This document shows, one piece after another, positions 14,016-34,087 of a stretch of 64,000 nucleotides of DNA. Both the position numbers and the translations under genes were made by a program. Numbering within the stretch: position 1 is the first letter of the stretch; each line of letters begins with the position of its first letter. The DNA comes from an uncultured Gammaproteobacteria bacterium (GTDB lineage Bacteria; Patescibacteriota; Microgenomatia; Levybacterales; UBA12049), in NCBI GenBank assembly GCA_964507055.1, contig CAZDOJ010000001.1:721313-785312 (forward strand), in the 5' to 3' direction. The notes under the pieces are model-generated. The model was not told the DNA's origin and did not search any database. It saw only the letters and a program-made list of their open reading frames with translations.

Positions 14016-14886
14016 TCTTTCTTTTCTTATATCGTATATATGCTCGAGGGAATCGCAATGCGGAAAAAAGAGAGAAAACAAATCCTTGGTATCCATCTAA
14101 GATACCTTTATGTCTCAGGTATGTTAAAAGGAACCAGCTTGCTGGCTTGAATAACATATAATTTGTTTGAACCTTAAAGGTGTCGCTATCTTTTTTCTCT
14201 GTTAATTCAGAGCTTATTAGATTTATATAACGACTATTTCGTTGAAGGTAACGTGCAAAATTTGGTGAGTCGATATGATAAAGATCATTTTGTAACCATC
14301 CTACTCTGCCATCAACTTCCATTTGTTCATGAACGTCTTTACAAGGCAAATATGCTTTCCCCTTGCGAATCAAACGAATAACACCATCAGGATAGACTCC
14401 TCCATATCGTAGATACTTCCCCAAAAAATAATTTAATCGTGGGATAAAAAACGCAGAATATTCTCCTGATTTTTTGCCAATCCTCCCATCCCTTTGTTCC
14501 AATAATTCTTGATGTTTTAGAAACAGATTTCTATTTGGTAAATTCTCTTGATATTTTTCAATTTCATGATCGGACATTTCTGTCATTTTGACAATCTCTG
14601 CTGCAAGTGCTGGACTTACTCTTTCATCTGCATCTAATTGAAGTATCCATTCAAACTGTGCCATGTCAATTCCCTTTTGCTTATTTATGTGGAATATTGG
14701 GGGATTATCTGTCACAACAATTTTTGCATTATATTTTTTCGAAATCTCTACAGTTTTATCAGTAGAAGAACCATCAATAATAATAATTTCATCAGCAATT
14801 TCTTTTACAGAGTCTAAACAATCTCCAATATTTTTCTCTTCATTAAATGTTGCTAATACTACTGATAACTTCTTATTCATATTCAT
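14005..14886 (-). CDS. glycosyltransferase family 2 (WaaE/KdtX-like subgroup)
   Basis: LSVVLATFNEEKNIGDCLDSVKEIADEIIIIDGSSTDKT, and DxD in QLDADERV. Paralog of 22333..23091 and 23156..24070. Start taken at MNMNKK; the track ORF extends to 14916. Confidence 0.85.
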   Translation of the reverse strand: MNMNKKLSVVLATFNEEKNIGDCLDSVKEIADEIIIIDGSSTDKTVEISKKYNAKIVVTDNPPIFHINKQKGIDMAQFEWILQLDADERVSPALAAEIVKMTEMSDHEIEKYQENLPNRNLFLKHQELLEQRDGRIGKKSGEYSAFFIPRLNYFLGKYLRYGGVYPDGVIRLIRKGKAYLPCKDVHEQMEVDGRVGWLQNDLYHIDSPNFARYLQRNSRYINLISSELTEKKDSDTFKVQTNYMLFKPASWFLLTYLRHKGILDGYQGFVFSLFSALRFPRAYIRYKKRKNEK

Positions 14887-16504
14887 AAATTGTTGTTGCT
14901 GGATTACCATCAGCATAGTTAAATTGTTTTACTTTCTTTCCTTTAAATGCTTCCTCACCAAGTGTCACAAAAAGATCGCCAGTCTTAAGCTGATTTCTAC
15001 ATTCTCCAAAATACGAATTACTTATAGCATAACAGTTCTTCGTTATTTGCCTTAATCCGCCTTCCTGTATATATTTATTTGGATCGTATTGGGTATAGAA
15101 GAGATAGAAAATATACGGTTGTTCAAAATTATTGGTAAAGATAATATTGTGGTCTGTATTTGATGTATATTGAATTGCTTCCTTATATCCATACTGCCAA
15201 TCCTTTTGTACTTCTGTATTTGTATGGACAAAGTATTGATGAAGATAGTAAATAACATTAAAGATTAAGAATAATAAAGGTAAAAGAAGAATCATACGTG
15301 TTCGTACATTTTTAAGAGAAGAAAATGCATACCACCAGCCAAATGCTTCAAATATATGCCATGTTGGAAGGAAGATTAAACTTCTTGATGCATTTGGAGC
15401 ATCAGTAGCTAAAGCCGAAGCCCCAGGGGCAAGTAATAACCATACAAATAATATCCAAGCGGTACGGAATTTATATTTTGTAAGATAAAATATTCCTAAT
15501 AAAATAAATGCTATATTTGTAACATACAAGATCCCCATACCAGGCGTATGATGACGAGGATTATCGCCTTTCATGAAAAGCCAAACTGGATTAAAGTGTT
15601 CTAAGTAATTAGTAATATATTGCTGTAGGTAAACAACTCGCCGGTTATGTACTATTGTTCTTATCGGATCGCCATTTACTTGATCATAGTTCATTTGCTG
15701 GAGTGGCTTTTGCAACAATTGGGTTTGACTACCAGTAAATAATACACCCCTTCCACGTGCAGTTGTACGGCTGTCTACCACCCAAAAAATATTACTAAGA
15801 GCAAAGACAACAAGTAAGCTAATTATAAGCACTTTTTTGCTAAAGAAATATTTCCATCCATATAAAATAAGAACAATAAATAAGGCAGGAGCAAATAATT
15901 TGTCACTGTGATACGTATAAGCACTTAATGCAAGTGCAATTGCTCCCATAAACAAGTACTTATTTCTTTTGGCATTCAATCCCTTAATAAAGAGCCAACT
16001 TCCTAAAATAATAAAGAATAAACCTACATTGGCTTCATACGCAACTCTACTAAATTGAATCGACCATGGAGATATTGCAAAGAAAAGCATTGAGAAAAGT
16101 GCAACTGTCTTTGCATATTTCTCTTTTCTAAAAAGTTCAAATGTAAAAAGATATACAAATAGAATAGTAAGTGTGCCGAAAAAGGCTGAGGGCAAACGAG
16201 TGGAAAACTCATTAAATCCAAATAAAGCAATACCCGGGACTGATGCATAAATATATAATGGTTGTTTATAATCTCCAAATGCCTTAAAAGAAAGAGGAAG
16301 TATATTACCGTGTTCATCTTTACCTGTTTGCAAAATGGAGTATGCACTATAACCCCAAGATACTTCATCCCAATTTAAACTATTAGGAATATTTCCTAAC
16401 TGATAAAATCGCAAAAAGCCGCCAATAAATAAGATTATGAGAAATAAAAGTAAAAACAGTTTTCTATTTAGTTTCATAAATCCAGAAAATCTCTTCCTTT
16501 CCAA
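14873..16504 (-). CDS. GT39/PMT_2-type (ArnT-like) polyprenol-phosphate-sugar-dependent glycosyltransferase
   Basis: First-loop motif LNWDEVSWGYSAYSILQTGKDEHGNILPLSFKAFGDYKQPLYIY, about 12 TM helices, and a C-terminal soluble domain. Alternative start MKLNRK at 16477. Confidence 0.7.
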   Translation of the reverse strand: MERKRFSGFMKLNRKLFLLLFLIILFIGGFLRFYQLGNIPNSLNWDEVSWGYSAYSILQTGKDEHGNILPLSFKAFGDYKQPLYIYASVPGIALFGFNEFSTRLPSAFFGTLTILFVYLFTFELFRKEKYAKTVALFSMLFFAISPWSIQFSRVAYEANVGLFFIILGSWLFIKGLNAKRNKYLFMGAIALALSAYTYHSDKLFAPALFIVLILYGWKYFFSKKVLIISLLVVFALSNIFWVVDSRTTARGRGVLFTGSQTQLLQKPLQQMNYDQVNGDPIRTIVHNRRVVYLQQYITNYLEHFNPVWLFMKGDNPRHHTPGMGILYVTNIAFILLGIFYLTKYKFRTAWILFVWLLLAPGASALATDAPNASRSLIFLPTWHIFEAFGWWYAFSSLKNVRTRMILLLPLLFLIFNVIYYLHQYFVHTNTEVQKDWQYGYKEAIQYTSNTDHNIIFTNNFEQPYIFYLFYTQYDPNKYIQEGGLRQITKNCYAISNSYFGECRNQLKTGDLFVTLGEEAFKGKKVKQFNYADGNPATTIYEYE

Positions 16505-18122
16505 TTATAATCTTTTTTAACTTATTTGTATCGATATCTTTACCTTGAAAATCATCAGGGTATCCAATGATAGAGACATTCTTTTCTTTATAAGCATTAC
16601 TAGGAATACTAAATTGAAGCTTATCTAGTTTCTCTACTTGACCGAACCCATACTCATCCACTGCACTGAGCGATGCTTTCTTTTGATATTGTTCAGGTGG
16701 GTACTTAAGATAGAAAAGCATAAAGATGTAAGGCTCACCATTTTTCTGAGTAATATAAAACTTTTTTAAATTAGAGTAATTATCCTTAACATACCCAGAT
16801 AGGTCCGAATATCCACACTGCCAAGCACGTATTGAAGTCGCTCTTTGAGGATAATGATTTAAATAAAAATCCCATGAATAGAAAAGAGCGATGCTCTCGA
16901 GAGCAACTATTGTAATTAAAATTGGGATAAATTTCTTTCTTTTTCTCGCAAACATCAGGATATTGTAGACTCCATATGCAATCACACATATAAGCGGAAT
17001 AAGCAAGAAGAGCGTTCGTGTTAGTGAATCTCCATTCCATGCAAAAGCAGCAGCTAACGGGGAAATTATAATCAAGGCGAGCAGAAAAAATCTCCATCGC
17101 TGACTGTTTTTAAATAGGTAAAATAGACCTATGAAGATGAACATATATTCAATAACTGTCATCGGAGACATAGAGTTATATCCAAAACGGGGATTGCTAT
17201 CTCCATTGGTTGCAAGAAACTGCGGAGAAAAATAAGTAAGCTCATTAGAAATAACATCCCGCGTGCCCACAGTAAATTTGTTATACAGTGAATGTATACC
17301 ACCTTCGTCTCTCAATTCGACTACCTTGAGCTTGAATCCACTGTTGTTAAATAGAAATAGATTTTCAACTCTTGCAGGTTTATATATAACGTCTGCGATT
17401 GCAGACACACTGATAGCTAGTAAGAAAATGCATATAAACAGCATGTTTTTCTTGAGCTTTTTCTTATAAATAAAATAACCAAGAGCATAACAAAAGAAGA
17501 AGAGAGCAAAAAGTCGACTTGATTGATACGAGAAAAGAGCCAAAAAAAGAGTAGCTATAAAAAATATTCCCAGATTCAGTTTTGTATTCTTTAAAAACTT
17601 TATAAAAAAGTATGTTGATAAGGATATAAGGAAAGCAGCAAGGAGTGCTTCATGTGCATGGCGTGCGATAATTCCTTTTCCTAGTGAAACACTCGTTACA
17701 AGAGCCCCTATTACAGCAATCTCATCTTTTTCAAAAAGCTCTTTTATCAAGAGATATATAACCAAAGGAAACAACAAAGCAATAACAATATTTAATGCAC
17801 GGACGCCTGATTCATTTAAGCCAATCGTGGCGACAAAGGGAACCGAAAGGTAAGAATATAAAGGCATTTTATAATCGCCAAACGATTTAAGGCGAACAGG
17901 CAACGTATTCCCATATTCATCAGCACCAGTTTTGAGTAATGAATAGGCATTATACCCAAATGCTGCTTCATCAGCATTCATACAAGGTGGAGTTTCATTA
18001 AACTTAAATAAAGAAAAAAATAAGGAGAAGCAAATCGAAACTATTAATAAGAAAAGGATAGACTTTTTTGAAGATATAAAGTCTATCCTTGAGCCCGGTT
18101 TTTTAGGCGTCTTTTTTTTCAT
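16464..18122 (-). CDS. GT39/PMT_2-type (ArnT-like) glycosyltransferase, tandem paralog
   Basis: MNADEAAFGYNAYSLLKTGADEYGNTLPVRLKSFGDYKMPLYSY matches its neighbour's motif, with the same architecture. Confidence 0.7.
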   Translation of the reverse strand: MKKKTPKKPGSRIDFISSKKSILFLLIVSICFSLFFSLFKFNETPPCMNADEAAFGYNAYSLLKTGADEYGNTLPVRLKSFGDYKMPLYSYLSVPFVATIGLNESGVRALNIVIALLFPLVIYLLIKELFEKDEIAVIGALVTSVSLGKGIIARHAHEALLAAFLISLSTYFFIKFLKNTKLNLGIFFIATLFLALFSYQSSRLFALFFFCYALGYFIYKKKLKKNMLFICIFLLAISVSAIADVIYKPARVENLFLFNNSGFKLKVVELRDEGGIHSLYNKFTVGTRDVISNELTYFSPQFLATNGDSNPRFGYNSMSPMTVIEYMFIFIGLFYLFKNSQRWRFFLLALIIISPLAAAFAWNGDSLTRTLFLLIPLICVIAYGVYNILMFARKRKKFIPILITIVALESIALFYSWDFYLNHYPQRATSIRAWQCGYSDLSGYVKDNYSNLKKFYITQKNGEPYIFMLFYLKYPPEQYQKKASLSAVDEYGFGQVEKLDKLQFSIPSNAYKEKNVSIIGYPDDFQGKDIDTNKLKKIIIGKEEIFWIYETK

Positions 18123-18140
18123 TAATTATTTATATCAATA

Positions 18141-18866
18141 TTAGTTGATAAAGCGATATTTTACTAGCGTCCAAATAGCCTTTATTCCATCTCTAACGGT
18201 ATTTAATTTCTTGCCTTCTTCATAACTTCTTGGATTCGTCGAAATTGGAACTTCTCTAATTTTGTGGCCTTGCTTGAGTAGCTTTGCTGTAATTTCAGGC
18301 TCTAATTCAAATCCCCTAGCATGTAGCGTAATATCTTTTAAAGCATCCTTTGGAAAAAGCTTGTAACAGCATTCCATATCAGTCAACCAATTGCCAAAGA
18401 ATACACTTGTTATTAAACTTAATGTCTTATTACCAACGTAGTGAATGAAAAACCGTGGCGTTCGTTCATCTTTTGCAAAGTCTGGCATTCTATTTAAGCG
18501 CGTCCCATAAATAACTTTTGCCTCGCCCAGAATGACAAGCTCTAAAAGTTTTTTAATATCTTGTGGATCATATTCTAAGTCTGCATCTTGGATAATTATA
18601 TAATTACCTTTCGCACGCTTGATACCAGTTCTTACAGCGGCCCCTTTACCCATATTTCGTTTATGATGAATAATCTTAAAATTAGCTTTTGTACTTTTTA
18701 TCTTTGTTAAAAATTTTGCGGTGTTATCAGTTGAACCATCATTAACAATGATAATTTCTTTACTTACTACAGGAAGTTTTACTGCAAAAACTTTCTTTAT
18801 TACTTGGGTTATTGTTTTTTCTTCATTGTAGACAGGAACAATAATAGATAGTTTTATTGAATTCAT
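18141..18866 (-). CDS. GT2 polyprenol-phosphate sugar synthase (DPM1/ArnC-like)
   Basis: LSIIVPVYNEEKTI, IVNDGSTDNT, IQDADLEYDP and ECCYKLF; a 241-aa soluble DPM1-like layout. Confidence 0.75.
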   Translation of the reverse strand: MNSIKLSIIVPVYNEEKTITQVIKKVFAVKLPVVSKEIIIVNDGSTDNTAKFLTKIKSTKANFKIIHHKRNMGKGAAVRTGIKRAKGNYIIIQDADLEYDPQDIKKLLELVILGEAKVIYGTRLNRMPDFAKDERTPRFFIHYVGNKTLSLITSVFFGNWLTDMECCYKLFPKDALKDITLHARGFELEPEITAKLLKQGHKIREVPISTNPRSYEEGKKLNTVRDGIKAIWTLVKYRFIN

Positions 18867-18873: not shown

Positions 18874-20886
18874 TCAGTCTTTTATCTCAAGTATTATAAC
18901 ATTTCTGTTTTCAAATCTTTTTACAAAATACTTGGAATTAAACTTAAAGGGTAGTTTTTGATCCTGAACCTTTTGTAAATAAAGATATTTAATATTTTTA
19001 GCTTTTGCGTTTTTAGCAAACGACTCAACATTTTTTGTTGCAAATAATTCAGAAAGAGCATATTCTAATTTTTTAATATTTTGGCCATGTGACTCTATCA
19101 TAGTAATACCAGAAATATAAGAATTTCTATCGGAAAAATATGCGACATATGTTGTGCTATGATCATGTGCATTTCTAGGATGAGATTGTACAAGAGCATC
19201 CCTTGAACTATGCAGACGAAGATAAGTAAGTGCCTCAATCTCTTCAGCAGGGATAATTGCTCCAGTATTTGTGATAATAACTGATGCTGCTGTTGCAGTT
19301 TCATAAAATGCCCTGGGAACAGTTAGGACAATCACAACAATAACTACTATGGTCGCCCATATTTTTTTCTTACGCATAAGCGTATATATTAAATACGCAG
19401 TGAAAAGAGCCATAACAGTAGTTGAGACAACAAAAAAATTAAATACATTAAAGCTCCCTGCTTTCTGCAGTGTTAAGAGGCCAAGGAGTTGGAAAAGAAG
19501 TATCCCAGGCAAAAAGAATAACATATGTTGCCATCCAAGCAGCTTGAATAAATCTTTATGGGGGATAATTCCCAGTAAACGAGTTCCATGGATACAGATC
19601 AAACCCACCAACGCTGCAAAGATATTATAGATAATTATATTTCTAGTATTGTCTGCTGCCTCATAAACTTGCATTCGGAGCCACCATTCTTGCATGTTTA
19701 AATTTTGATATCCCAAAAAGACTTTAGGCCATTCTAAGGGATAATATGCTAAACCACCGGAACTTGCGTTGGGAGGGAAATAAACTATCGATGCAATTGT
19801 TCCAAATAATATGAGTAAAAGAATAGTTCTATACTCCTTTACGAAAAGCTTTTTACAACTTTTGCCAAATGAATATTTTCTTACTAAATGAATAAGTGAC
19901 ACGATTATCCGTCCACAAACAATTAAGGCAAAACCAAGAGCTGTAAATATCCCGAAATAAACTTTAAACCCAACTAATGGAGCAAAGAAAAGTACCGAAA
20001 GGAATCCCCACTTATTTTGGTTTGATTGAATCCAATTATATAAAGGAATCAAGCCACTTATAAATATCATTTTTGCCGCAGCATGTGGCATGTTATAAAA
20101 TTGCGTTATTCCATTATCAATTGCTGGTGTATAAAATCCAAACTTATGCTGTAAAATGAGCATGAAAATATATGCTGCATCTCCACCAAAGTAGAGAAAA
20201 AATAGTGCACATGCACTTGCCATTTTGGATTTTGTCCATAGACGCATTAACAAAAAGGTTGCCATACTGGTTATAACCGCTAAAAATAAGGGGATAAAAT
20301 GAAAGAAAATATGATGGGCAGGAATGAACCAAACTCTGGAGAGCTCAGCAATATTAAGATCCATCCAATAATGATAATTTATAAGTTCTAAGGTAGCAGC
20401 TCCTGGTTCCCTTGGTGGGAAGGTAGTCATCATTTCTTGTATATAAGCCATATGCATTAAACCATCCACGCTATTGGGCCCCAGAAAGCGCATACCTTCA
20501 CTAGTCATCCACCCTGAGCCAAGCATAACGAGTGATTGAAGAATTACCCCAACAAAAATAAATACACTAATAGATTTGTTTTGTCGTATTCTTCCAGTAA
20601 CATAAATAAATATTTTTTTAAGTTCATTTCTATGTGGAATTGCGAGAATGGCTACGAGTAGTAGAAAAATGTAACTTACCCAGCGAAGCTGTAAATATCC
20701 TAAAATATATGCTTGCAATGTCCATAAAATATACCCCAAACATAGGGCAAGAACAAAGTTTGTGATACTCATTTTAGAGTCTATTTTCCGTATGAGCAGG
20801 AAACCTGGAAGATAAAACGAAATAAATACAGCAACGAAGAAGCCTATGAGTGATAACCAAAATTGATAATCAAGAATCGAATACAT
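18874..20886 (-). CDS. large polytopic membrane protein (putative GT-C-like or polymerase; family unassigned)
   Basis: 670 aa, with more than 12 predicted helices and then a ~150-aa C-terminal soluble domain. No motif I can name. Confidence 0.35.
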   Translation of the reverse strand: MYSILDYQFWLSLIGFFVAVFISFYLPGFLLIRKIDSKMSITNFVLALCLGYILWTLQAYILGYLQLRWVSYIFLLLVAILAIPHRNELKKIFIYVTGRIRQNKSISVFIFVGVILQSLVMLGSGWMTSEGMRFLGPNSVDGLMHMAYIQEMMTTFPPREPGAATLELINYHYWMDLNIAELSRVWFIPAHHIFFHFIPLFLAVITSMATFLLMRLWTKSKMASACALFFLYFGGDAAYIFMLILQHKFGFYTPAIDNGITQFYNMPHAAAKMIFISGLIPLYNWIQSNQNKWGFLSVLFFAPLVGFKVYFGIFTALGFALIVCGRIIVSLIHLVRKYSFGKSCKKLFVKEYRTILLLILFGTIASIVYFPPNASSGGLAYYPLEWPKVFLGYQNLNMQEWWLRMQVYEAADNTRNIIIYNIFAALVGLICIHGTRLLGIIPHKDLFKLLGWQHMLFFLPGILLFQLLGLLTLQKAGSFNVFNFFVVSTTVMALFTAYLIYTLMRKKKIWATIVVIVVIVLTVPRAFYETATAASVIITNTGAIIPAEEIEALTYLRLHSSRDALVQSHPRNAHDHSTTYVAYFSDRNSYISGITMIESHGQNIKKLEYALSELFATKNVESFAKNAKAKNIKYLYLQKVQDQKLPFKFNSKYFVKRFENRNVIILEIKD

Positions 20887-23091: not shown

Positions 23092-23155
23092 AAGTATTCT
23101 AAATGGGTTTTCTTTATATCACAATCTGTGTATTTATTCTAATTTACTGAACTAT

Positions 23156-27939: not shown

Positions 27940-29454
27940 TTATTGCTTTAGTTCATACAGTGTGTAATAAGATTCTTTATCTTCTTTTTGAATTTGCAGA
28001 ACCTTTGTGAGTGTCCATGTATCTGGAGCTAAGCCAATCCCTTCGCAAGGAGGACATGGTTGATAAAAGACAACATAAGTTGGCATTGTTTTGCTTGCAT
28101 CGAGTATTTCTTGCGGAGGGGTATCATTTATTGGCCAGTAACCTTGAACTTTTATATTTGGATTCGTGCCAAGATATATATCGAGTGCATATGGCATGAG
28201 GCCAAATGTACCTTGCGTTGCTACATAAATTTTCTCATTTTTTGCTTTCGCTTCGAGAAACTTTACTGTTTCCTTCACGCCATTTCCGGCAGGCCAATCA
28301 GTAACGAATTGTTCTCTATCGCCTTGCGGAATTGCTGCTTTAGAAAAATTAGTCATGATATGAAAATCAGTAACGATCCACATGCCCGTAAATACAACTG
28401 CAATAAGCACTTTTAACCAGCCTGTTTTTACATATGTGAGTAATGTATACAACGAAAATGCACCCAATAAAATAAGCGGCATAGTCATAAAAAGAATAAA
28501 TCGTGGATAGATAACTTTTCCAAAAAACGCCAAAGCCATAAAAGGAACAATAAACCATACAAGTAATAAAAGTTTTTCTCTTGTGTATTTCTTACTGACG
28601 AAGAATGAAGCAAGGACAAGAATAAGGAACGGAAGTGTCATATAACCAATCAACCAACCACTCAAACCTTGTAGGTTGCCAAATACATAAGCAAACGGAT
28701 TCTGGAACCAGTCACTGAATGAATAAATGAACGTAAGATTTTTCTCGCCAATAATATGATAAAAAGGCGACAGTCGTAGAATTGCATAGATTGCCTGAGC
28801 CAATACAAATGCAACTACTGCAAATCCAAACCACTTAAAAAGTTTCTTCCTATCTAACTTTTCTTTGAATGGAAAAAGAAGCAAAGAAAACGGAAGCAAA
28901 ATAAATCCAAAATTTGCACTTGTCTTCGTCAACATTCCTCCTCCAACAATCATCCCCAATAATAATGCTAAGTCTAATCGCACATATCTTGCAAGCAAAA
29001 CGGAGAAATATAATGACCATATGATGAATAAGGCAACCATTGAATCATACAGAGCCATGCGATCATAGACCAAGGCAAACGGGTACAGGACATATAAGAT
29101 GCTCGCTGTTAAACCAATAAACTTATTCTTAAATAGCTCTCTCCCAAGAAGGAACATACCTACCATTGAAGCAAAACCAGTAAAAACAGAGACAAGTCTT
29201 CCTGCAACTAAAGGATCTTTTACAAATTCGATAAGGATCATTGCTGCCCAAATAAATGACGGCTGCTTTCCATCGGTAAGAGAGATAAATCTCCATGTGG
29301 CATCATTATTTGCAATTTGAGCCCAACGGATATAGATGGCCTCATCAGTAAAGATAGGTAGCCCGGTGAGGTTATATAAGCGAGTAAAGAAGTATAATCC
29401 CGCTAACAAAACGAAGAATGTACTGAGATAGAGATGTTTTCTAATATAACGCAT
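27940..29454 (-). CDS. ArnT/PMT_2-like GT-C glycosyltransferase
   Basis: First-loop PIFTDEAIYIRWAQ (DE motif), multi-TM, and a C-terminal ~130-aa soluble domain. Confidence 0.6.
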   Translation of the reverse strand: MRYIRKHLYLSTFFVLLAGLYFFTRLYNLTGLPIFTDEAIYIRWAQIANNDATWRFISLTDGKQPSFIWAAMILIEFVKDPLVAGRLVSVFTGFASMVGMFLLGRELFKNKFIGLTASILYVLYPFALVYDRMALYDSMVALFIIWSLYFSVLLARYVRLDLALLLGMIVGGGMLTKTSANFGFILLPFSLLLFPFKEKLDRKKLFKWFGFAVVAFVLAQAIYAILRLSPFYHIIGEKNLTFIYSFSDWFQNPFAYVFGNLQGLSGWLIGYMTLPFLILVLASFFVSKKYTREKLLLLVWFIVPFMALAFFGKVIYPRFILFMTMPLILLGAFSLYTLLTYVKTGWLKVLIAVVFTGMWIVTDFHIMTNFSKAAIPQGDREQFVTDWPAGNGVKETVKFLEAKAKNEKIYVATQGTFGLMPYALDIYLGTNPNIKVQGYWPINDTPPQEILDASKTMPTYVVFYQPCPPCEGIGLAPDTWTLTKVLQIQKEDKESYYTLYELKQ

Positions 29455-29474
29455 TATGGATATTATACTTAATA

Positions 29475-30929
29475 CTATACCTTTTCAGCAATCAGGTGAT
29501 TCAACCTAACTTTACTAAGAATTACTTCAAGGTCTTTTTTCCTGAACATGTACAATACGTTTAATGTGATCGGAGGAATAAAAATAAGTATATAAGTAAT
29601 GATTGGCCAAATTACTGATTGTGTATTAATCCGATAAATAACCCACAGCAATGGATATGCAAATAAAGATGTAATTGAAAGACCTACTGTAGTTAAGAGC
29701 AACTTTTTATCAAGAACAAGTGGAATTAAAGGCAATATCCAAAGGACATACCAATTCCAATATGCTGTACTAATAAATAATAAATATACTAAGAGTACAA
29801 CGATGTATGCATAGACAGGTTCTATATCATGCTTCCAAACCTGCCACGTAAAATAGAGTAACCATAACAGGAATAAGACAAAAACTACTTGTATTAATTG
29901 CGGCTGGAACAATAGAAGAACTGTAGGTAGCGATTGCCAGTAAACACCACCATTGTATGCAACTCGTTGCAAAAACTCTATAAGATTTACTTGCATAAAC
30001 GAAAATAGTAATGTGTTTATGCTAACGAATCCTGCAACAAAAGAGAGCAATCCAAGATATTTTTTCTTTTTTACTAATGAAAGTAGACAAAAGAAGAATA
30101 AGACAATTGGAATTAATTTTACTTGCACTGCTAGGGCTAAAATTATGCCTGCAAAAAACCATAGCTTCTTACGGAAGAAATAATAACTGAGCAGTGTAAA
30201 GAAAATCATCATACTGTCGTTATGTCCCGAGCCGAATATTTCAAGTATAAAAATTGGATTCCAGAAAACGAATATTAATGCCCAATTTAGATAATTTTTC
30301 TTTTGCTCTTTTAGTACTAAATACAACACATAAAATATCCCAGCTGCAAATAATGCAGGGACCAATTTATAGAGAATAACAAGAGTGACCAAATCATTCT
30401 GTCCAATATACGATGGGAGCAAATATAACAAAAAGTGTATTCCACCATACACACTCGTTGTATCTTTCCAATCTGCTAATACACCAAATTGGTCATCTGG
30501 AAATGTAGCTGGCTTAACTTGCCAAATATTTTCACCATGTACTGTTGCTACACGTTCAGAAAAAATATAAGAGAAAATATCTGTGGATAATATCGGGAAT
30601 GATACAAATGTTACTATTTGGAAAAGTACCGTAAACAGTATTATTTGTTTGAGCGTAAACTTTACCTTGAGAGCAATCAGATATAAAATTACCGCAGCTA
30701 CAGAAACGGCTGCAAATATGATTGTGGGAATAGAATTTAACCCATATCCAGATAATATTGTTTGCATCGAAAAAAGAAAATCTTTTGCTGCTGGATAAAG
30801 ATTTCCAATTCCAATAATTGCTCGAGGGTCTCGAAATAGTAAAACCCATGAGAGGATCAAATATGTAAAAAAACAAAGACTAAGCAAACTAGCAATTATG
30901 ATTGGTAATTGGGATTTATGTAACTTCAT
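29475..30929 (-). CDS. polytopic membrane protein, GT87/DUF2029-like mannosyltransferase candidate
   Basis: STDIFSYIFSERVATVHGENIW (D...Y...G.N pattern) and WNPIFILEIFGSGHNDSMMIFFTLLSYYF. Paralog of 32097..33329. Confidence 0.4.
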   Translation of the reverse strand: MKLHKSQLPIIIASLLSLCFFTYLILSWVLLFRDPRAIIGIGNLYPAAKDFLFSMQTILSGYGLNSIPTIIFAAVSVAAVILYLIALKVKFTLKQIILFTVLFQIVTFVSFPILSTDIFSYIFSERVATVHGENIWQVKPATFPDDQFGVLADWKDTTSVYGGIHFLLYLLPSYIGQNDLVTLVILYKLVPALFAAGIFYVLYLVLKEQKKNYLNWALIFVFWNPIFILEIFGSGHNDSMMIFFTLLSYYFFRKKLWFFAGIILALAVQVKLIPIVLFFFCLLSLVKKKKYLGLLSFVAGFVSINTLLFSFMQVNLIEFLQRVAYNGGVYWQSLPTVLLLFQPQLIQVVFVLFLLWLLYFTWQVWKHDIEPVYAYIVVLLVYLLFISTAYWNWYVLWILPLIPLVLDKKLLLTTVGLSITSLFAYPLLWVIYRINTQSVIWPIITYILIFIPPITLNVLYMFRKKDLEVILSKVRLNHLIAEKV

Positions 30930-32100
30930 GTTTTTTAATTTTATACAAAATTAGCCAGACTGTTAAAGTATACATAAATGGAATAATTAGAAGGAAGTAT
31001 CGTGACCAAACAGGAATAAATGAAAGAAATAGGAGATAGATGATAATCCATATACATGGGAATACTATCATCGATTTGCGATATTTTCTAAAAACAAAAA
31101 CTATAGTTATTGCTGAAATTACGGTAAGTAAAATCCATCCAAAATGCCATTCATCCACAACAGATATTTGCCCCCACCAATTAGCATATTTACCGGTAAA
31201 TATAATTTCCCATGGAGCTGAGAAAGACCCTTTCGCACCTCCGGCATAAAAATTGATAATCCATTTTTGAACGCCTAGAAAATCCATAAATGAATTGCCT
31301 AACAAAAAGTATTGGATATAAGTAGCAACAAACACTATACCTGCAATCGGCAGTGTCATAATATACTTTTTAACTAGTTTGAGTTGCTTCGTGACAACTA
31401 AATAAAGCACAATTGCCCCTATAACGAGAGGAAATGTAGATGCTGTAGATTTAGTTGCAGCCATGAGACCAAGAACAACAGCAGAAGCAAAATACTTTTT
31501 TTTCAGGAAGAAGTAGCAGATCATGAAGAATAGTCCAATATATAAAAGATCTAACAAAGATATTTGAAGTTGTGTAAAAAATAACGGTTCAAAAGAAAGT
31601 AATAAGACTGGAATAAAGGCTGCTAATTTACTCTTAAAGAATAATGTATTAACGAGATAAAAAGCATATAAAGCAAACAGTCCACTTAATAATGCAAAGA
31701 TATTCTGATTCTTAAAAATAAGCTCAGATAAACCAATAAGATACTTTCCAAGGGGTGGAATTTCTGCATTTAAAAGGGTCGGGTCTTTGCCATGAATGTA
31801 TTCCCATCCTGCATATGTATATACACCATCATCGCCTATGGCATTTTTTTTGAGATCAGCTGCTGCTGCATTATTCTTATTCTGTTCAAACCATTGATCG
31901 TCCCAAATACATGTGTAGGGATTTACATGCGGATCCAAATTTTCACATGCAGGTTTGGTGCTCCATTGAGAATTCTCATACTTTAGCTTCCAATAATCTG
32001 CATTAAAAGGGGTAAGATAATCAGTTCTATATTCATATATTCTGAATGCAATATGTACCGCAAAAAGAATCAGTAAACCAATAAATACTTTCTTTCTCAT
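30916..32100 (-). CDS. short GT39 (PMT-like) phospholipid-carrier-dependent glycosyltransferase candidate
   Basis: Loop-1 GDDGVYTYAGWEYIHGKDPTLLNAEIPPLGKYLIG resembles the PMT DE...HPPLGK signature; followed by ~9 helices. Confidence 0.45.
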   Translation of the reverse strand: MRKKVFIGLLILFAVHIAFRIYEYRTDYLTPFNADYWKLKYENSQWSTKPACENLDPHVNPYTCIWDDQWFEQNKNNAAAADLKKNAIGDDGVYTYAGWEYIHGKDPTLLNAEIPPLGKYLIGLSELIFKNQNIFALLSGLFALYAFYLVNTLFFKSKLAAFIPVLLLSFEPLFFTQLQISLLDLLYIGLFFMICYFFLKKKYFASAVVLGLMAATKSTASTFPLVIGAIVLYLVVTKQLKLVKKYIMTLPIAGIVFVATYIQYFLLGNSFMDFLGVQKWIINFYAGGAKGSFSAPWEIIFTGKYANWWGQISVVDEWHFGWILLTVISAITIVFVFRKYRKSMIVFPCIWIIIYLLFLSFIPVWSRYFLLIIPFMYTLTVWLILYKIKKHEVT

Positions 32101-33329
32101 TTCTTTTTCTTTCGTTTAACTTGACGTGCAAAAAGTATTTGCTTGTAAAAAAAGTAGGCGGTAATAATAAGAAATGCTAAAGTATAACTCAAGAAATTCA
32201 TATCTAAAAGAATTTGAGGTATTGGCTTATCCCAGTTACCCGTAAAAAGGAATGGTACATAATTCATCAAGGAGAAAAATGACACAATGACAGCTGGAAT
32301 TAGCACATAATATCGATAGGAAATGAGTGCAGCAAAAGCTAAAACATCAATAAGATACCACGGCTGAAATGTACCTCTATATGATTGTGCCGCCGCTCCC
32401 CCAATAAGAAGTATTACTGCTATGCCAATAATAAAACCCCATTTTCGATGAATCTTCTCGGCCTTCATTCGGTGGATAACGACAAATAGTGGTAATAAAA
32501 CAGCTGTGACAAATTTTATTGCAATGGAAAGAAATAGTAGCCCATACGCTTTACCATGTTTTTCTATAATCATAAAATAGAATGCCCAAAGGGCAAAAAA
32601 CATCATGACAATGTCAATGTGAGGACTTACAACACTTTCTATAAGCATCAGTGGATTTAATCCAAAGAAAATAAGCCCCATTACTTCTCGTTCCGGAGCA
32701 ATCGTCTTTAATATTTTTCCAATAAAGAATACTGAACCGATGAAACAAGCTATCATTAACAATTTAAAAAGGAAAAATGTTGGCAAAAAGAATTGCAAAC
32801 CTATGAAAGAAAGAGGTACTGTAATCACCAACCAGAACGGACCATATGGATATTCTCGATGGGTCCAACGCATAAATGAAAGCATCGGATCCTCAGGATA
32901 ATCTAGAGCTTTTTGTACATAAGGATTGTCTCCATAATGAGTTATAATCTTTGCATCAAATATATAATTAAAAATATCATAGGAAAAAGCGTTGTAGGAA
33001 AAGGTAAGAATAATTGTGGCTGCACCAATCAAAATCCACGTAAACTTTTTTTGAATCTTCTTTTTGGTAGCTAGTCTTAAAAAGATTACATAAAAGACAA
33101 AAAGGATCACAACAAGTGAAACAAAAAGGGTTGCAGAAAGAGGCCTGTCAAAATATCCAATCTGTTGAAAAGAGCGTACAATTTCCTGAAGTGCTTCATT
33201 TCGAGAGAGAGCCAAACTTAAATCAATTTGTGTAAAACTGTAGAAGAATAATCCAACAAGCGGGACACAATAAAAGAAAAGGATTAAATATTCTTTTAAT
33301 GATAAATTTTTAAATAGTGTTTTCACCAT
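32097..33329 (-). CDS. polytopic membrane protein, GT87/DUF2029-like, paralog of 29475..30929
   Basis: SYDIFNYIFDAKIITHYGDNPYV and LNPLMLIESVVSPHIDIVMMFFALWAFYF align with its paralog. Confidence 0.4.
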   Translation of the reverse strand: MVKTLFKNLSLKEYLILFFYCVPLVGLFFYSFTQIDLSLALSRNEALQEIVRSFQQIGYFDRPLSATLFVSLVVILFVFYVIFLRLATKKKIQKKFTWILIGAATIILTFSYNAFSYDIFNYIFDAKIITHYGDNPYVQKALDYPEDPMLSFMRWTHREYPYGPFWLVITVPLSFIGLQFFLPTFFLFKLLMIACFIGSVFFIGKILKTIAPEREVMGLIFFGLNPLMLIESVVSPHIDIVMMFFALWAFYFMIIEKHGKAYGLLFLSIAIKFVTAVLLPLFVVIHRMKAEKIHRKWGFIIGIAVILLIGGAAAQSYRGTFQPWYLIDVLAFAALISYRYYVLIPAVIVSFFSLMNYVPFLFTGNWDKPIPQILLDMNFLSYTLAFLIITAYFFYKQILFARQVKRKKKK

Positions 33330-34087
33330 TAATTATATCTTCCTGCAAGTACATTTCTTTTAATTTTTACAAGATCTTTTACTCCCTGAATCGCATCGCG
33401 TACAGGATTAACTCTTCTCGTCTCTACATGAAGCCAATTTACATGAACTTCTTTTATTTTATAGCCATGATTTCTTGCAATGTAGAGAATCTCAATATCT
33501 GATCCAAAAGTAATTGCTGTCCCCTTAACTTTCTCAAAACCATTTTTTAGAACTTTTAATTTATTAAATACATCGTCCGCTGCTTTTGCAGTAAACAATT
33601 TAAATCCACATTGTGTGTCTGTTATATCATTAATGCCTATTATCATTTTTCTCATAATGATTGCACTTCGAGAAATAAATAAACGTATCTCCGGAGCACC
33701 TTTTCGCTGCGTACTTCTCGAACCAATGGCGATATCATAGTCTCCACTTTCAAGATATGGTAGTAAATTATTAACTTCTTCAATAGGAGTAGCCTGATCC
33801 ATATCAGTAAAAAGACGGTACTCACCTTGTGCTTTCAACATGCCGGTAGTAACAGCACCAGCTTTTCCATAGTGAGGGTTTTTAATTAAGATAAAATGAG
33901 GATTTTCTTTTATAAATTTTTCGATAAACTCGACGCTACCGTCTCTCGATCCATCATCAGCGATGATTACTTCGTAGGAAATCTTTTTCTTTTCAAGAAA
34001 ATGCTGTACTTTTTCAAGCACACCTTTCTGGAGATTAGCCATCTCATCATAGCAAGGAATAACAACAGAAAGAAATATTTTCTTCAC
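33329..34087 (-). CDS. GT2 polyprenol-phosphate sugar synthase (DPM1/ALG5-like)
   Basis: LSVVIPCYDEMANL, IADDGSRDGS, FTDMDQAT and TQCGFKLF. Confidence 0.75.
   Translation of the reverse strand: MKKIFLSVVIPCYDEMANLQKGVLEKVQHFLEKKKISYEVIIADDGSRDGSVEFIEKFIKENPHFILIKNPHYGKAGAVTTGMLKAQGEYRLFTDMDQATPIEEVNNLLPYLESGDYDIAIGSRSTQRKGAPEIRLFISRSAIIMRKMIIGINDITDTQCGFKLFTAKAADDVFNKLKVLKNGFEKVKGTAITFGSDIEILYIARNHGYKIKEVHVNWLHVETRRVNPVRDAIQGVKDLVKIKRNVLAGRYN

What the first reader, a model, noticed from the sequence alone, without database searches (positions are those of the whole stretch)
14873..34087. Repeated pairing of DPM1/ALG5-like carrier-sugar synthases with GT-C proteins (at least three donor/transferase modules)
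Seen: each soluble ~240-250-aa GT2 with the DPM1/ALG5-type [QC]-[CG]-[FY]-K-L-F motif sits next to GT-C-like genes. 18141-18866 (ECCYKLF) lies between the GT39 paralogs (14873-18122) and the 670-aa polytopic protein (18874-20886). 25496-26227 (DCGFKLF) overlaps the 579-aa polytopic gene, which is followed by the ArnT-like gene 27940-29454. 33329-34087 (TQCGFKLF) heads the run of GT87-like / PMT-like / GT87-like genes (29475-33329). Established: ArnC/ArnT, Ppm1/Pmt and GtrB/GtrC all work as a pair, a polyprenol-P-sugar synthase plus a GT-C transferase. Inference: the island contains several independent modules of that type in tandem. Each probably uses a different sugar or acceptor.
Basis: partly seen in the sequence, partly recalled or inferred. 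Interest (0 to 1): 0.6.

Follow-up and report, generated by a model that had tools for sequence, protein, structure and literature searches.

The report
Lipid-sugar donor and transferase gene island
A tiny-genome Levybacterium carries a 34-kb gene island in which three to four enzymes that load sugars onto a membrane lipid sit among eleven membrane enzymes that use such lipid-sugars outside the cell; this is a well-known type of system, here unusually dense and conserved across the phylum.

Summary
The three ~240-250-aa GT2 genes lie at the stated coordinates and have no predicted TM helix. The motif [QC][CG][FY]KLF occurs only in them. Each lies beside polytopic genes.

By sequence coverage, a predicted structure and a small tree, the three group with polyprenyl-phosphate glycosyltransferases (PfDPMS, GtrB, ArnC). 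The other GT2s of the island do not.

All eleven non-flippase polytopic proteins between 2.3 and 40 kb are GT-C-related, five of them without any Pfam hit. The 670-aa protein has a GT-C fold.

Adjacency is conserved in Levybacteria:
- GT2-C is followed by the GT87/MptA-B-like gene in 52 of 53 loci.
- The YfhO/PTPS-like gene precedes GT2-B in 14 of 15 loci.
- A Wzx-type flippase follows GT2-B in 8 of 8 loci.
- GT2-A always sits in a GT-C-rich setting, but its direct partner varies.

- The modules lie in two tightly packed co-directional gene strings, so independent expression is doubtful.
- GT-Cs outnumber donor synthases about 3:1.
- The ArnT-like gene travels with GT2-C, not GT2-B.
- The 670-aa and 538-aa genes are accessory.
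- The Wzx flippases were overlooked.

Sugars and acceptors remain unknown. This is a new member of a known kind, of moderate interest.

The parts
33329..34087 (-). GT2-C: TM-less polyprenyl-phosphate glycosyltransferase-like GT2 (252 aa, GTG start). It heads the first gene string.
   Evidence: PF00535 at 1e-25. Family profile against PDB: PfDPMS 3e-29, GtrB 1.5e-27, ArnC 5e-24. AF2 model pLDDT 87.8. Foldseek ranks 1-25 are all GtrB/PfDPMS/ArnC. JGI names homologues dolichyl-phosphate beta-glucosyltransferase.
32097..33329 (-). GT87/MptA-B-like GT-C (410 aa). Fixed partner of GT2-C; the two genes overlap by 1 nt.
   Evidence: GT87 22.1 bits, below the 25-bit threshold. Orthologues carry PF26314 MptA_B_family. 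Directly downstream of GT2-C in 52/53 loci, and its upstream gene is GT2-C in 38/38. Conserved D118/D125.
30916..32100 (-). 394-aa GT-C-like polytopic protein; accessory.
   Evidence: No Pfam hit. hhalign to the PMT_2 and PMT504 families at 93% probability. Conserved D90-D91 in loop 1. Present after GT87_410 in only 2/44 loci.
29475..30929 (-). GT87-family GT-C (484 aa); accessory paralogue of the 410-aa gene.
   Evidence: GT87 31 bits, above the threshold. The orthologue in L001 hits MptA_B_family and GT87. hhalign to GT87_410 at E 1e-19.
27940..29454 (-). PMT_2/PMT (ArnT/Pmt-like) GT-C (504 aa). It travels with the GT2-C/GT87 pair.
   Evidence: PMT_2 4e-9, PMT 3e-5. Follows the GT87_410 orthologue in 35/44 loci. 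Conserved D37-E38.
26199..27938 (-). YfhO/PTPS_related-type GT-C (579 aa). Fixed upstream partner of GT2-B.
   Evidence: PTPS_related 29.4 bits, above the threshold. The orthologue has a faint YfhO hit. Directly upstream of GT2-B in 14/15 loci. Conserved D32.
25496..26227 (-). GT2-B: TM-less polyprenyl-phosphate glycosyltransferase-like GT2 (243 aa).
   Evidence: PF00535 at 2e-29. Best PDB hit is ArnC at 1.7e-13 over residues 12-223. NCBIfam ArnC, AglJ, PpgS and Dol-P-hexose transferase models align over the full length. Clusters with PPGTs at 100% bootstrap.
24067..25509 (-). Wzx/MOP-family flippase (480 aa), overlapping GT2-B by 14 nt. Candidate third component.
   Evidence: Polysacc_synt_3 4e-44. 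NCBIfam MOP flippase 5e-33 and O-glycosylation flippase 1e-28, both below cut-off. Directly downstream of GT2-B in 8/8 loci.
22333..24070 (-). Two GT2s of another type (304 and 252 aa); not carrier-sugar synthase-like.
   Evidence: PF00535 hits. Only the N-terminal halves match named GT2 models. They form a separate clade with 14005-14916 at 100% bootstrap.
22075..22332 (+). 85-aa opposite-strand ORF that splits the island into two gene strings.
   Evidence: ORF found. The equivalent 90-aa gene in L001 carries DUF5652.
20935..22005 (-). GT4 glycosyltransferase (356 aa); first gene of the second string.
   Evidence: Glycos_transf_1 1e-20. Conserved upstream of GT2-A in relatives.
18874..20886 (-). 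670-aa sequence-orphan GT-C-fold protein with an AglB-like C-terminal domain; accessory.
18141..18866 (-). GT2-A: TM-less polyprenyl-phosphate glycosyltransferase-like GT2 (241 aa).
   Evidence: PF00535 at 4e-36. PDB hits: GtrB 2e-19; PfDPMS 2.5e-16 over residues 2-237. NCBIfam AglJ 7e-37 over 6-237. JGI names homologues dolichol-phosphate mannosyltransferase. 43-53% identical homologues occur in archaea and many bacterial phyla.
16464..18122 (-). PMT_2-class GT-C (552 aa).
   Evidence: PMT_2 3e-8. ADE motif in loop 1. Orthologue 71% identical in L001.
14873..16504 (-). PMT_2-class GT-C (543 aa). The commonest GT-C type next to GT2-A homologues.
   Evidence: PMT_2 5.5e-11. Conserved D46-E47. 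PMT2_543-like genes flank GT2-A in Levybacteria and in DPANN archaea.
14005..14916 (-). GT2 of the non-carrier type (303 aa).
   Evidence: PF00535 at 5e-19. Clade with 22333-24070. Conserved after the PMT_2 genes in relatives.
12480..14096 (-). 538-aa GT-C-like polytopic protein; accessory.
   Evidence: No Pfam hit. hhalign to PMT2_543 at E 2e-16 and to the 528-aa protein at 6e-42. Conserved D74/D78. Absent from the closest relative (L009).
7259..8086 (-). Fourth DPMS-like GT2 (275 aa), with DAG in place of DAD.
   Evidence: PfDPMS 7e-14 over residues 20-221. Alignment. Joins the PPGT clade with only 42% support. Wzx461 lies directly upstream in 3/3 loci.
8096..9481 (-). Second Wzx-like flippase (461 aa), directly upstream of the fourth GT2.
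   Evidence: Polysacc_synt_3 6e-18. hhalign to Wzx480 at E 2e-9.
2322..4946 (+). 874-aa YfhO/PTPS-like GT-C candidate at the far end of the island.
   Evidence: No Pfam hit. hhalign to the PTPS579 family at 97% probability, E 3e-11, over 290 columns.
38461..40047 (-). 528-aa GT-C-like paralogue of the 538-aa protein, outside the island.
   Evidence: No Pfam hit. hhalign to TM538 at 6e-42 and to PMT2_543 at 3e-17. Conserved D49.

Best explanation
The region is the core of a ~34-kb cell-surface glycan island of a Levybacterium (Candidate Phyla Radiation).

Proposed mechanism:
1. Three cytoplasmic, anchor-less GT2 enzymes (GT2-A, GT2-B, GT2-C), and possibly a fourth at 7259-8086, transfer a single sugar from a nucleotide sugar to polyprenyl phosphate. 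This makes polyprenyl-P-sugar donors.
2. The donors are moved to the outer face of the membrane. For GT2-B, and for the fourth GT2, the Wzx/MOP flippase encoded directly beside them is the likely carrier.
3. A battery of eleven GT-C-type membrane glycosyltransferases uses the donors outside the cell to build or decorate surface glycans or glycoproteins.

Two pairings are fixed in evolution: GT2-C with a GT87/MptA-B-like GT-C, and a YfhO/PTPS-like GT-C with GT2-B and Wzx. GT2-A instead sits in a changing crowd of PMT_2-like and orphan GT-Cs, so it probably feeds several of them.

Shown: gene content, family and fold assignments, conservation of gene order.
Inferred: enzymatic activity, membrane sidedness, role of the flippases, which donor feeds which GT-C, sugars and acceptors.
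For: Synthase identity:
- NCBIfam models of named polyprenyl-P sugar synthases (AglJ, PpgS, ArnC, Dol-P-hexose transferase) align over the whole length. Non-carrier GT2 models mostly align only to the N-terminal ~100-130 residues.
- The best full-length PDB sequence hits are GtrB, PfDPMS and ArnC.
- Foldseek ranks 1-25 for the GT2-C model are all GtrB/PfDPMS/ArnC (TMq 0.57-0.73, ~240 columns). The first other GT2 appears at rank 26.
- In the GT2-C family, the residues aligned to the lipid-phosphate ligands of PfDPMS (R117, R131, S135; PMC5526996) are conserved.
- In a neighbour-joining tree, GT2-A/B/C group with PfDPMS, GtrB and ArnC at 100% bootstrap. The other island GT2s fall outside.

GT-C identity:
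- Pfam PMT_2, PMT, PTPS_related and GT87 hits.
- The five proteins without Pfam hits are linked to these families by hhalign, while the two Wzx proteins match only each other.
- Each family has conserved acidic residues in its first large outer loop.
- The 670-aa protein is a GT-C by fold.

Linkage:
- GT2-C followed by GT87_410 in 52/53 loci; GT87_410 preceded by GT2-C in 38/38.
- PTPS579 followed by GT2-B in 14/15; GT2-B followed by Wzx480 in 8/8.
- GT2-A has a GT-C-profile gene within two genes in 24/26 close relatives. Distant homologues have one directly adjacent in 10/51 loci, against 8% of control genes (p = 0.02).
- Start/stop overlaps of 1-29 nt occur at the key junctions.

Precedent:
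- Three-component systems GtrA/B/C, CsbB/GtcA/YfhO, and a variant with a MATE-family flippase (PMC11127046, PMC7389260).
Against: - No activity, sugar or acceptor is known.
- All matches to named NCBIfam equivalogs are far below their cut-offs.
- The synthases lack the C-terminal TM helices of GtrB, ArnC and PfDPMS, so their membrane association is unexplained.
- No GtrA-type small flippase is present in the window.
- Wzx proteins normally flip diphosphate-linked oligosaccharides, so their role here is open.
- Nearly all loci used for the synteny counts come from one phylum. Part of the conservation could therefore be inherited gene order.
- For close relatives of GT2-A, direct adjacency (62%) does not differ significantly from other genes of the same island (46%).
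- Structure was predicted for only one synthase and one GT-C.
Confidence: 0.7

Rival explanations
1. Archaeal-type pathway. One or more of the small GT2s, especially GT2-B and the fourth GT2 (each glued to a Wzx gene), does not make a one-sugar donor. It primes a polyprenyl-monophosphate-linked oligosaccharide, as AglJ does in Haloferax. The neighbouring cytoplasmic GT2/GT4 enzymes extend it, Wzx flips it, and a GT-C (for instance the OST-like 670-aa protein or the YfhO-like protein) transfers it en bloc.
For: - No WecA/WbaP-type priming phosphoglycosyltransferase lies in the 64-kb window, although it holds two Wzx genes, three GT4s and four further GT2s.
- The best NCBIfam match of GT2-A is AglJ (7e-37).
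- The order GT2-B, Wzx480, GT2_304 is conserved.
- The 670-aa protein has a GT-C core plus a C-terminal domain like that of AglB/PglB/STT3.
Against: - The priming enzyme may simply be encoded elsewhere in the ~1.3-Mb genome.
- Monophosphate-linked oligosaccharide carriers are known to me only from archaea.
- The 670-aa protein lacks WWDYG and has only one invariant acidic residue. It is also absent from the closest relative.
- All AglJ scores are far below the model cut-off.
Confidence: 0.15
2. There is no specific pairing. The GT-C genes and the GT2 genes are simply co-located in one large inherited surface-glycan island. Donors are shared freely or come from elsewhere, and adjacency reflects conserved gene order within Levybacteria rather than functional modules.
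For: - Eleven GT-C-like genes against three or four synthases.
- The direct neighbours of GT2-A vary. In close relatives its adjacency does not exceed the island background (62% against 46%, not significant).
- Accessory GT-Cs come and go.
- One continuous tightly packed gene string.
Against: - The GT2-C/GT87_410 junction (52/53) and the PTPS579/GT2-B/Wzx480 junctions (14/15, 8/8) persist while flanks and intervening genes change.
- Distant GT2-A homologues in other phyla and in DPANN archaea still lie beside PMT_2-like genes more often than control genes do.
Confidence: 0.12
3. The small GT2s are ordinary cytoplasmic GT2s that add sugars to a soluble or undecaprenyl-diphosphate-linked acceptor. 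The GT-C neighbours take their donors from elsewhere.
For: - The N-terminal halves match many non-carrier GT2 models (PgaC, EpsD, TuaG, chondroitin synthase).
- They have no TM helices.
Against: - Only carrier-sugar synthase models and structures match through the C-terminal half.
- Structural ranks 1-25 are all carrier-sugar synthases.
- 100% bootstrap grouping with PfDPMS, GtrB and ArnC.
- The lipid-phosphate ligands are conserved in the GT2-C family.
Confidence: 0.03

Closest known systems
Ppm1 (polyprenyl-P-mannose synthase) with the GT-C mannosyltransferases MptA/MptB (GT87-like), PimE and Pmt of Corynebacterineae
   Same: A synthase catalytic domain without TM helices supplies several GT-Cs. 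GT2-C is fixed next to a GT87/MptA_B-family gene, followed by a Pmt/ArnT-like gene. This is a 'few donors, many GT-Cs' arrangement. The mycobacterial biology is from my own knowledge, not read here.
   Different: A different phylum (CPR). The sugar is unknown, and JGI labels GT2-C homologues as glucosyl- rather than mannosyl-type. No Ppm2/Lnt-type anchor was seen. The window's 410-aa gene is below the GT87 threshold.
CsbB / GtcA / YfhO three-component glycosylation of teichoic acids in Firmicutes (PMC7389260)
   Same: A GT2 C55-P-sugar synthase is encoded next to a YfhO-type GT-C. The conserved pair 26199-27938 (PTPS_related/YfhO-like) plus GT2-B matches this layout.
   Different: GT2-B lacks the membrane anchor. 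There is no GtrA/GtcA-type flippase; a Wzx/MOP protein follows instead. The acceptor is unknown.
GtrA / GtrB / GtrC O-antigen glucosylation, and the MATE-flippase variant (GT136 system) of Citrobacter (PMC11127046)
   Same: The same logic: lipid-P-sugar synthase, then flippase, then GT-C. The Citrobacter case shows that a MOP-superfamily (MATE) transporter can be the flippase, which is a precedent for Wzx480 next to GT2-B.
   Different: The donor synthase in Citrobacter is a PRPP-dependent enzyme, not a GT2. Gtr systems have one GT-C per cassette and are often phage-borne. Here there is an 11-GT-C chromosomal array.
ArnC / ArnT (with ArnE/F) lipid A modification
   Same: ArnC is the best PDB sequence match of GT2-B, over the full length. 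27940-29454 is ArnT/Pmt-like.
   Different: No formyltransferase, deformylase or ArnE/F genes. ArnC has two TM helices. Levybacteria have no lipid A as far as I know (own knowledge). Scores are far below the ArnC equivalog cut-off.
Archaeal Agl pathway (AglJ/AglD synthases, AglR Wzx-like flippase, AglS and AglB GT-Cs)
   Same: The best NCBIfam match of GT2-A is AglJ. GT2-A homologues are ~50% identical in DPANN archaea, with an adjacent PMT_2-like gene. A Wzx-like protein sits next to a synthase. The 670-aa protein has an AglB-like architecture. The Agl pathway details are from my own knowledge.
   Different: No WWDYG-bearing oligosaccharyltransferase. All scores are below the equivalog cut-offs. 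A bacterial host.

Membership tests
Polyprenyl-phosphate glycosyltransferases (GT2; DPMS/ALG5/GtrB/ArnC/Ppm1 type) | GT-A fold GT2 domain with a DxD motif | tested here: met
   PF00535 at E 4e-36, 2e-29 and 1e-25. DAD (GT2-A), DGD (GT2-B) and DMD (GT2-C) occupy the aligned position. The fourth GT2 has DAG there.
Polyprenyl-phosphate glycosyltransferases (GT2; DPMS/ALG5/GtrB/ArnC/Ppm1 type) | Similarity to known members extends through the acceptor-binding C-terminal half, and members are the closest structures | tested here: met
   GT2-C: Foldseek ranks 1-25 are all GtrB/PfDPMS/ArnC over ~240 of 252 residues. GT2-A: PfDPMS over residues 2-237. GT2-B: ArnC over 12-223. NCBIfam coverage pattern. 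NJ tree 100% bootstrap. A structure was predicted only for GT2-C.
Polyprenyl-phosphate glycosyltransferases (GT2; DPMS/ALG5/GtrB/ArnC/Ppm1 type) | Residues that bind the lipid phosphate (PfDPMS R117, R131, S135; PMC5526996) | tested here: inconclusive
   All three are aligned and conserved in the GT2-C family profile (GSR ... R..IS). In GT2-A and GT2-B the two Arg positions align (GTR/GYR; PRFF/FRHV), but the Ser does not.
Polyprenyl-phosphate glycosyltransferases (GT2; DPMS/ALG5/GtrB/ArnC/Ppm1 type) | C-terminal transmembrane anchor (GtrB, ArnC and PfDPMS have one) | tested here: not met
   No hydrophobic segment in any of the four. The feature is not universal: human DPM1 has none and relies on DPM3 (PMC5526996).
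Polyprenyl-phosphate glycosyltransferases (GT2; DPMS/ALG5/GtrB/ArnC/Ppm1 type) | Score above the cut-off of a named equivalog model (AglJ, PpgS, ArnC, Dol-P-hexose transferase, PgfS) | tested here: not met
   The best score is 127 bits against a 325-bit cut-off (AglJ, GT2-A). All others are lower. None can therefore be given the name or sugar of a characterised enzyme.
Polyprenyl-phosphate glycosyltransferases (GT2; DPMS/ALG5/GtrB/ArnC/Ppm1 type) | Formation of polyprenyl-P-sugar from a nucleotide sugar | not testable with these tools
   Needs an enzyme assay.
GT-C glycosyltransferases | Polytopic membrane protein with 7-13 TM helices | tested here: met
   7-12 predicted TM segments in all eleven candidates.
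GT-C glycosyltransferases | Conserved acidic residue(s) in the first large extracytoplasmic loop | tested here: met
   At least 90% conserved: D46-E47, D37-E38, D32, D74/D78, D49, D90-D91, D118/D125. D141 is invariant in the 670-aa family. Sidedness was inferred, not measured. Not assessed for 2322-4946 or 29475-30929; for 16464-18122 only the loop-1 ADE motif was read, without a conservation count.
GT-C glycosyltransferases | Membership of a curated GT-C sequence family | tested here: inconclusive
   Five pass Pfam thresholds: PMT_2 three times, PTPS_related, GT87. One is below threshold (GT87, 22.1 against 25 bits). Five have no hit. Those five are linked by hhalign at 86-100% probability, and the Wzx controls are negative.
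GT-C glycosyltransferases | GT-C fold | tested here: met
   [not shown]
Three-component extracytoplasmic glycosylation systems (GtrABC, CsbB-GtcA-YfhO) | Lipid-P-sugar synthase and GT-C encoded together | tested here: met
   Conserved junctions: 52/53, 14/15.
Three-component extracytoplasmic glycosylation systems (GtrABC, CsbB-GtcA-YfhO) | Dedicated small GtrA/SMR-type flippase | tested here: not met
   No ORF of 70-200 aa with three or more TM segments lies within 700-34087. A Wzx/MOP protein sits next to GT2-B (8/8) and next to the fourth GT2 (3/3) instead. Its role is not shown.
Three-component extracytoplasmic glycosylation systems (GtrABC, CsbB-GtcA-YfhO) | A defined acceptor glycan or protein modified outside the membrane | not testable with these tools
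   No glycan data exist for this organism. Three searches of the paper library found no study of such islands in CPR bacteria.
Oligosaccharyltransferases STT3/AglB/PglB (considered for the 670-aa protein) | GT-C core plus C-terminal globular domain of the OST type | tested here: met
   [not shown]
Oligosaccharyltransferases STT3/AglB/PglB (considered for the 670-aa protein) | WWDYG motif and several conserved acidic metal ligands | tested here: not met
   No WWDYG in the sequence or the family consensus. Only one invariant acidic residue, D141. No sequence-level hit to any OST. Not filed as an OST.

The most novel reading that the evidence does not exclude
Levybacteria, with genomes of about 1.3-1.6 Mb, devote about 2.5% of the genome to a phylum-wide conserved extracytoplasmic glycan factory. 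It works with anchor-less lipid-sugar synthases that dock onto their translationally coupled GT-C or Wzx neighbours. Wzx/MOP proteins flip monophosphate-linked sugars or oligosaccharides. The orphan 670-aa family, with an OST-like GT-C core and an AglB-type C-terminal domain but no WWDYG, would be a new bacterial en-bloc or protein-directed glycosyltransferase. Together this would be an archaeal/eukaryote-style dolichol-like pathway in a CPR bacterium, possibly producing the surface glycans that mediate attachment to hosts.
Probability: 0.12. Interest if true: 0.65.

Novelty: new member of a known kind. Interest (0 to 1): 0.35.

Why it matters
- CPR bacteria are uncultivated, have tiny genomes and are thought to live attached to other cells. 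Almost nothing is known about their surface chemistry.
- A conserved operon with three or four lipid-sugar synthases and up to eleven GT-C transferases says that much of their envelope glycan is assembled outside the membrane from lipid-monophosphate donors, as in mycobacterial lipoglycans or eukaryotic and archaeal protein glycosylation.
- The fixed pairs (GT2-C with the MptA/B-like gene; the YfhO-like gene with GT2-B and Wzx) are compact, expressible units for finding the sugars and acceptors.
- The island also yields a sequence-orphan GT-C family with an oligosaccharyltransferase-like architecture.
- None of this overturns current understanding. It extends a textbook mechanism to a poorly known phylum.

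Tried and rejected
- Promoter and terminator scans of 14.5-34.4 kb gave no excess over shuffled sequence (74 against 89.5 expected; 11 against 9.7). They could not define transcription units.
- Relaxed Pfam searches (E up to 5) of the five orphan polytopic proteins gave only noise. Scanning 40 members of the 670-aa family gave 3 marginal DUF6541 hits. The family profile found nothing in the PDB sequences.
- Paper searches for CPR, Patescibacteria or Levybacteria together with GT-C, mannosyltransferase or glycosyltransferase returned nothing relevant.
- I considered a special CPR-DPANN transfer of GT2-A. I did not pursue it, because identities to DPANN (47-53%) equal those to other CPR lineages and to Anaerolineae.
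- I looked for a GtrA-type flippase and for a priming phosphoglycosyltransferase in the window. Neither was found.
- A strict GT-C-profile adjacency test for close GT2-A relatives was not significant against the island background. I therefore do not claim a fixed partner for GT2-A.
- The look-up of the exact source contig did not give an organism name. The Levybacteria assignment rests on the names of close homologues and loci.

Full report
**What is in the sequence**

The window is AT-rich (GC about 0.31-0.42). From about 700 to 34087 it holds a nearly uninterrupted run of minus-strand glycan-synthesis genes.

The three GT2 genes named in the finding are present exactly as described: 18141-18866 (241 aa, here GT2-A), 25496-26227 (243 aa, GT2-B) and 33329-34087 (252 aa, GT2-C).
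- All hit PF00535 strongly.
- None has a predicted TM helix.
- The motif [QC][CG][FY]KLF occurs exactly three times in the six-frame translation of the whole window, once in each.

A fourth related GT2 lies at 7259-8086, outside the finding. Its motif is DTQVGIKFF and it has DAG where the others have DxD.

Close homologues and related loci are named Candidatus Levybacteria/Levyibacteriota. The organism is therefore a Levybacterium of the Candidate Phyla Radiation, with a genome of about 1.3 Mb.

**Are the small GT2s carrier-sugar synthases?** Four lines of evidence agree.
1. NCBIfam coverage. Models of named polyprenyl-P sugar synthases (AglJ, PpgS, ArnC, haloarchaeal Dol-P-hexose transferase) align over the whole protein. 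For most non-carrier GT2 models (PgaC, WcaA and others), and for the PDB chondroitin synthase, only the N-terminal nucleotide-binding part aligns. For GT2-C, TuaG and EpsD reach about residue 170-185. All scores are far below the equivalog cut-offs, so no specific name or sugar can be transferred.
2. PDB sequence hits. The best full-length hits are GtrB and PfDPMS for GT2-A, ArnC for GT2-B, and PfDPMS for GT2-C and the fourth GT2. A profile of the GT2-C family scores PfDPMS 3e-29, GtrB 1.5e-27 and ArnC 5e-24. It also aligns the residues that hold the lipid phosphate in PfDPMS (R117, R131, S135; PMC5526996) with conserved GSR and R..IS positions.
3. Structure. An AlphaFold model of GT2-C (pLDDT 87.8) has GtrB, PfDPMS and ArnC chains at Foldseek ranks 1-25 (E 6e-14 to 4e-10, TMq 0.57-0.73, about 240 aligned columns). 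The first other GT2 appears at rank 26 with TMq 0.54.
4. Tree. I built a small neighbour-joining tree from the window GT2s and the PDB sequence segments printed by the tools. GT2-A, B and C group with PfDPMS, GtrB and ArnC at 100% bootstrap. The fourth GT2 joins with only 42% support. The other four island GT2s and a chondroitin-synthase domain fall outside.

One difference from GtrB, ArnC and PfDPMS is the absence of any membrane anchor. Human DPM1 also lacks one (PMC5526996).

**Are the neighbours GT-C enzymes?**
- Five pass Pfam thresholds: PMT_2 for 14873-16504, 16464-18122 and 27940-29454 (the last also PMT), PTPS_related for 26199-27938, and GT87 for 29475-30929.
- 32097-33329 is just below the GT87 threshold, but its orthologues carry PF26314 MptA_B_family.
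- Five polytopic proteins have no hit at all, even at E = 5.

I built family alignments from related loci and compared them with hhalign:
- The 538-aa and 528-aa proteins are paralogues (E 6e-42) and relate to PMT_2 proteins (about 1e-16).
- The 874-aa protein relates to the PTPS/YfhO-like family (3e-11).
- The 394-aa protein relates to PMT_2-type families (93% probability).
- The 670-aa protein gives weaker links (86-96%).
- The two Wzx proteins match only each other, which serves as a negative control.

Each family assessed keeps acidic residues in its first large outer loop.

For the 670-aa protein I collected 84 homologue clusters. The few that carry a source name are CPR (Roizmanbacteria, Patescibacteria group). 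Its model has pLDDT 93.4.
- It has no WWDYG motif and only one invariant acidic residue. I call it a GT-C of a new sequence family, not an oligosaccharyltransferase.

In total the window holds eleven GT-C-like genes and three to four synthase-like GT2s.

**Is the adjacency conserved?**

I fetched 80 species-level genome loci around GT2-A homologues, 80 metagenome loci around GT2-C homologues and several neighbourhoods by exact protein look-up. I called genes in them and matched these to the window proteins.

| Junction | Loci with it / loci evaluable |
|---|---|
| GT2-C followed directly by the orthologue of 32097-33329 | 52 / 53 |
| That gene preceded by GT2-C | 38 / 38 |
| That gene followed by the orthologue of 27940-29454 | 35 / 44 |
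| PTPS/YfhO-like orthologue of 26199-27938 directly upstream of GT2-B | 14 / 15 |
| Wzx orthologue of 24067-25509 directly downstream of GT2-B | 8 / 8 |
| Second Wzx directly upstream of the fourth GT2 | 3 / 3 |

Upstream of GT2-C the genes are unrelated and variable, so GT2-C does head the run.

Between the ArnT-like gene and the PTPS-like genes, relatives carry varying insertions (for example ~800-aa polytopic proteins, or extra PMT_2 genes). The window's 394-aa, 484-aa, 670-aa and 538-aa genes are rare in, or absent from, the closest relatives.

GT2-A behaves differently.
- In relatives at least 55% identical, a GT-C-profile gene lies within two genes in 24 of 26 loci.
- The direct neighbour varies: PMT_2-like, 670-like, other polytopic, another GT2, or a ~195-aa protein.
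- Direct adjacency (62%) does not differ significantly from other genes of the same island (46%).
- Among distant homologues (43-55% identity, many phyla including DPANN archaea), 10 of 51 have a PMT_2-like gene directly adjacent, against 8% of control genes (p = 0.02). By a looser polytopic criterion the count is 24 of 51.

The strength of pairing differs, however: two fixed cores, and one synthase embedded in a changing GT-C crowd.

**How it most likely works**

The layout matches the established three-component logic. A cytoplasmic GT2 charges polyprenyl phosphate with one sugar, a flippase moves it outward, and a GT-C transfers the sugar to a surface polymer or protein. Known examples are GtrA/B/C, CsbB/GtcA/YfhO, and the MATE-flippase variant in Citrobacter (PMC11127046; PMC7389260).

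My reading is as follows:
- GT2-C feeds the MptA/B-like GT-C and probably the ArnT/Pmt-like GT-C that travels with it.
- GT2-B works with the YfhO-like GT-C, and the adjacent Wzx/MOP protein is the best candidate flippase.
- GT2-A supplies several PMT_2-like and orphan GT-Cs.

The junctions are very tight: -1, -4, -14, +1, -29, -14 and -4 nt in the first string. The only break is an opposite-strand 85-aa ORF at 22075-22332 (DUF5652 in L001). Co-expression in two long strings is therefore more likely than independent modules.

The three synthases are old paralogues (27-35% identity). Each has its own conserved lineage (60-84% for GT2-A, 57-93% for GT2-C). JGI annotation gives them different labels, mannosyl-type for GT2-A homologues and glucosyl-type for GT2-C homologues. 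This fits different sugars but does not show it.

**Rivals**

The main rival is an archaeal-type route. In it a small GT2 primes a monophosphate-linked oligosaccharide, the neighbouring GT2/GT4 enzymes extend it, Wzx flips it, and a GT-C transfers it. The points in its favour:
- No priming phosphoglycosyltransferase lies in the window.
- GT2-A's best model match is AglJ.
- The 670-aa protein has an AglB-like architecture.

The priming enzyme may lie elsewhere, and the 670-aa gene is accessory.

A second rival is that the adjacency is only inherited gene order. The persistence of the two fixed junctions amid rearrangements, and the cross-phylum signal for GT2-A, weaken it.

The idea that the GT2s are ordinary non-carrier enzymes is essentially excluded.

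**Comparison with known systems, and novelty**

Functionally this is the known synthase/GT-C arrangement. The closest analogues are the mycobacterial Ppm1 with MptA/MptB/Pmt (few donors, many GT-Cs, a synthase domain without TM helices) and the Firmicute CsbB/YfhO pair.

The specific features here are:
- The phylum.
- The density: eleven GT-C-like genes in 40 kb of a ~1.3-Mb genome.
- Anchor-less synthases, in most cases with 1-29-nt gene overlaps to a membrane-protein neighbour.
- Wzx-type rather than GtrA-type flippase candidates.
- An orphan GT-C family with an oligosaccharyltransferase-like C-terminal domain.

I found no paper on such islands in CPR bacteria in the library searched. I rate it a new member of a known kind, with moderate interest.

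Noticed in passing
[not shown]
   Followed up: partly
L039, L045, L047, L053, L057, L063 (around position 10001 in each): GT2-A homologues in DPANN archaea (Pace-, Woese-, Nanoarchaeota) are 48-53% identical to the Levybacterial enzyme. Each has a 600-640-aa PMT_2-like gene directly upstream. The synthase/GT-C pair therefore crosses the domain boundary.
   Followed up: partly
window 24067-25509 and 8096-9481 (-): Two Wzx/MOP flippase genes each lie directly next to a DPMS-like GT2 (8/8 and 3/3 related loci). No GtrA-type flippase and no WecA/WbaP-type priming transferase is present in the 64-kb window.
   Followed up: partly
window 7259-8086 (-): The fourth DPMS-like GT2 has DAG instead of the DAD/DxD metal-binding motif. 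It clusters only weakly with the carrier-sugar synthases (42% bootstrap). Its activity may be altered.
   Followed up: partly
window 33329-34087 (-): A 237-aa form identical to the window protein (P0121) is on record in the collection. The GTG start at 34087 gives 252 aa and restores the conserved first beta-strand (LSVVIPCYDE) found in most homologues. The shorter form looks like a truncated gene call.
   Followed up: yes
L009, L010, L021, L025, L026 and others (record titles): Many MAG records that carry Levybacteria-type loci are titled 'uncultured Gammaproteobacteria', for example the 1.61-Mb chromosome OZ246394.1. Others are titled Deltaproteobacteria or Sulfotelmatobacter. These taxon labels look wrong.
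   Followed up: no
window 12480-14096, 18874-20886, 30916-32100, 10428-11396: These four genes (three GT-C-like, one epimerase) are missing from the otherwise syntenic closest relative, whose GT2-A is 84% identical (L001/L009). GT-C genes are gained or lost quickly inside a stable frame.
   Followed up: partly
window 38014-40047: A 528-aa GT-C-like paralogue of the 538-aa island protein lies outside the island, directly beside a 148-aa ORF with three predicted TM segments and no Pfam hit. tRNA-Glu(CTC) is at 37905-37977.
   Followed up: no
window 41113-43062 (-), 45614-46867 (+), 56814-58433 (-): A 649-aa Acyl_transf_3 membrane protein (possible glycan O-acyltransferase), a GH5 cellulase-family protein and an alpha-amylase-family protein lie downstream of the island. 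These are further carbohydrate-related genes.
   Followed up: no
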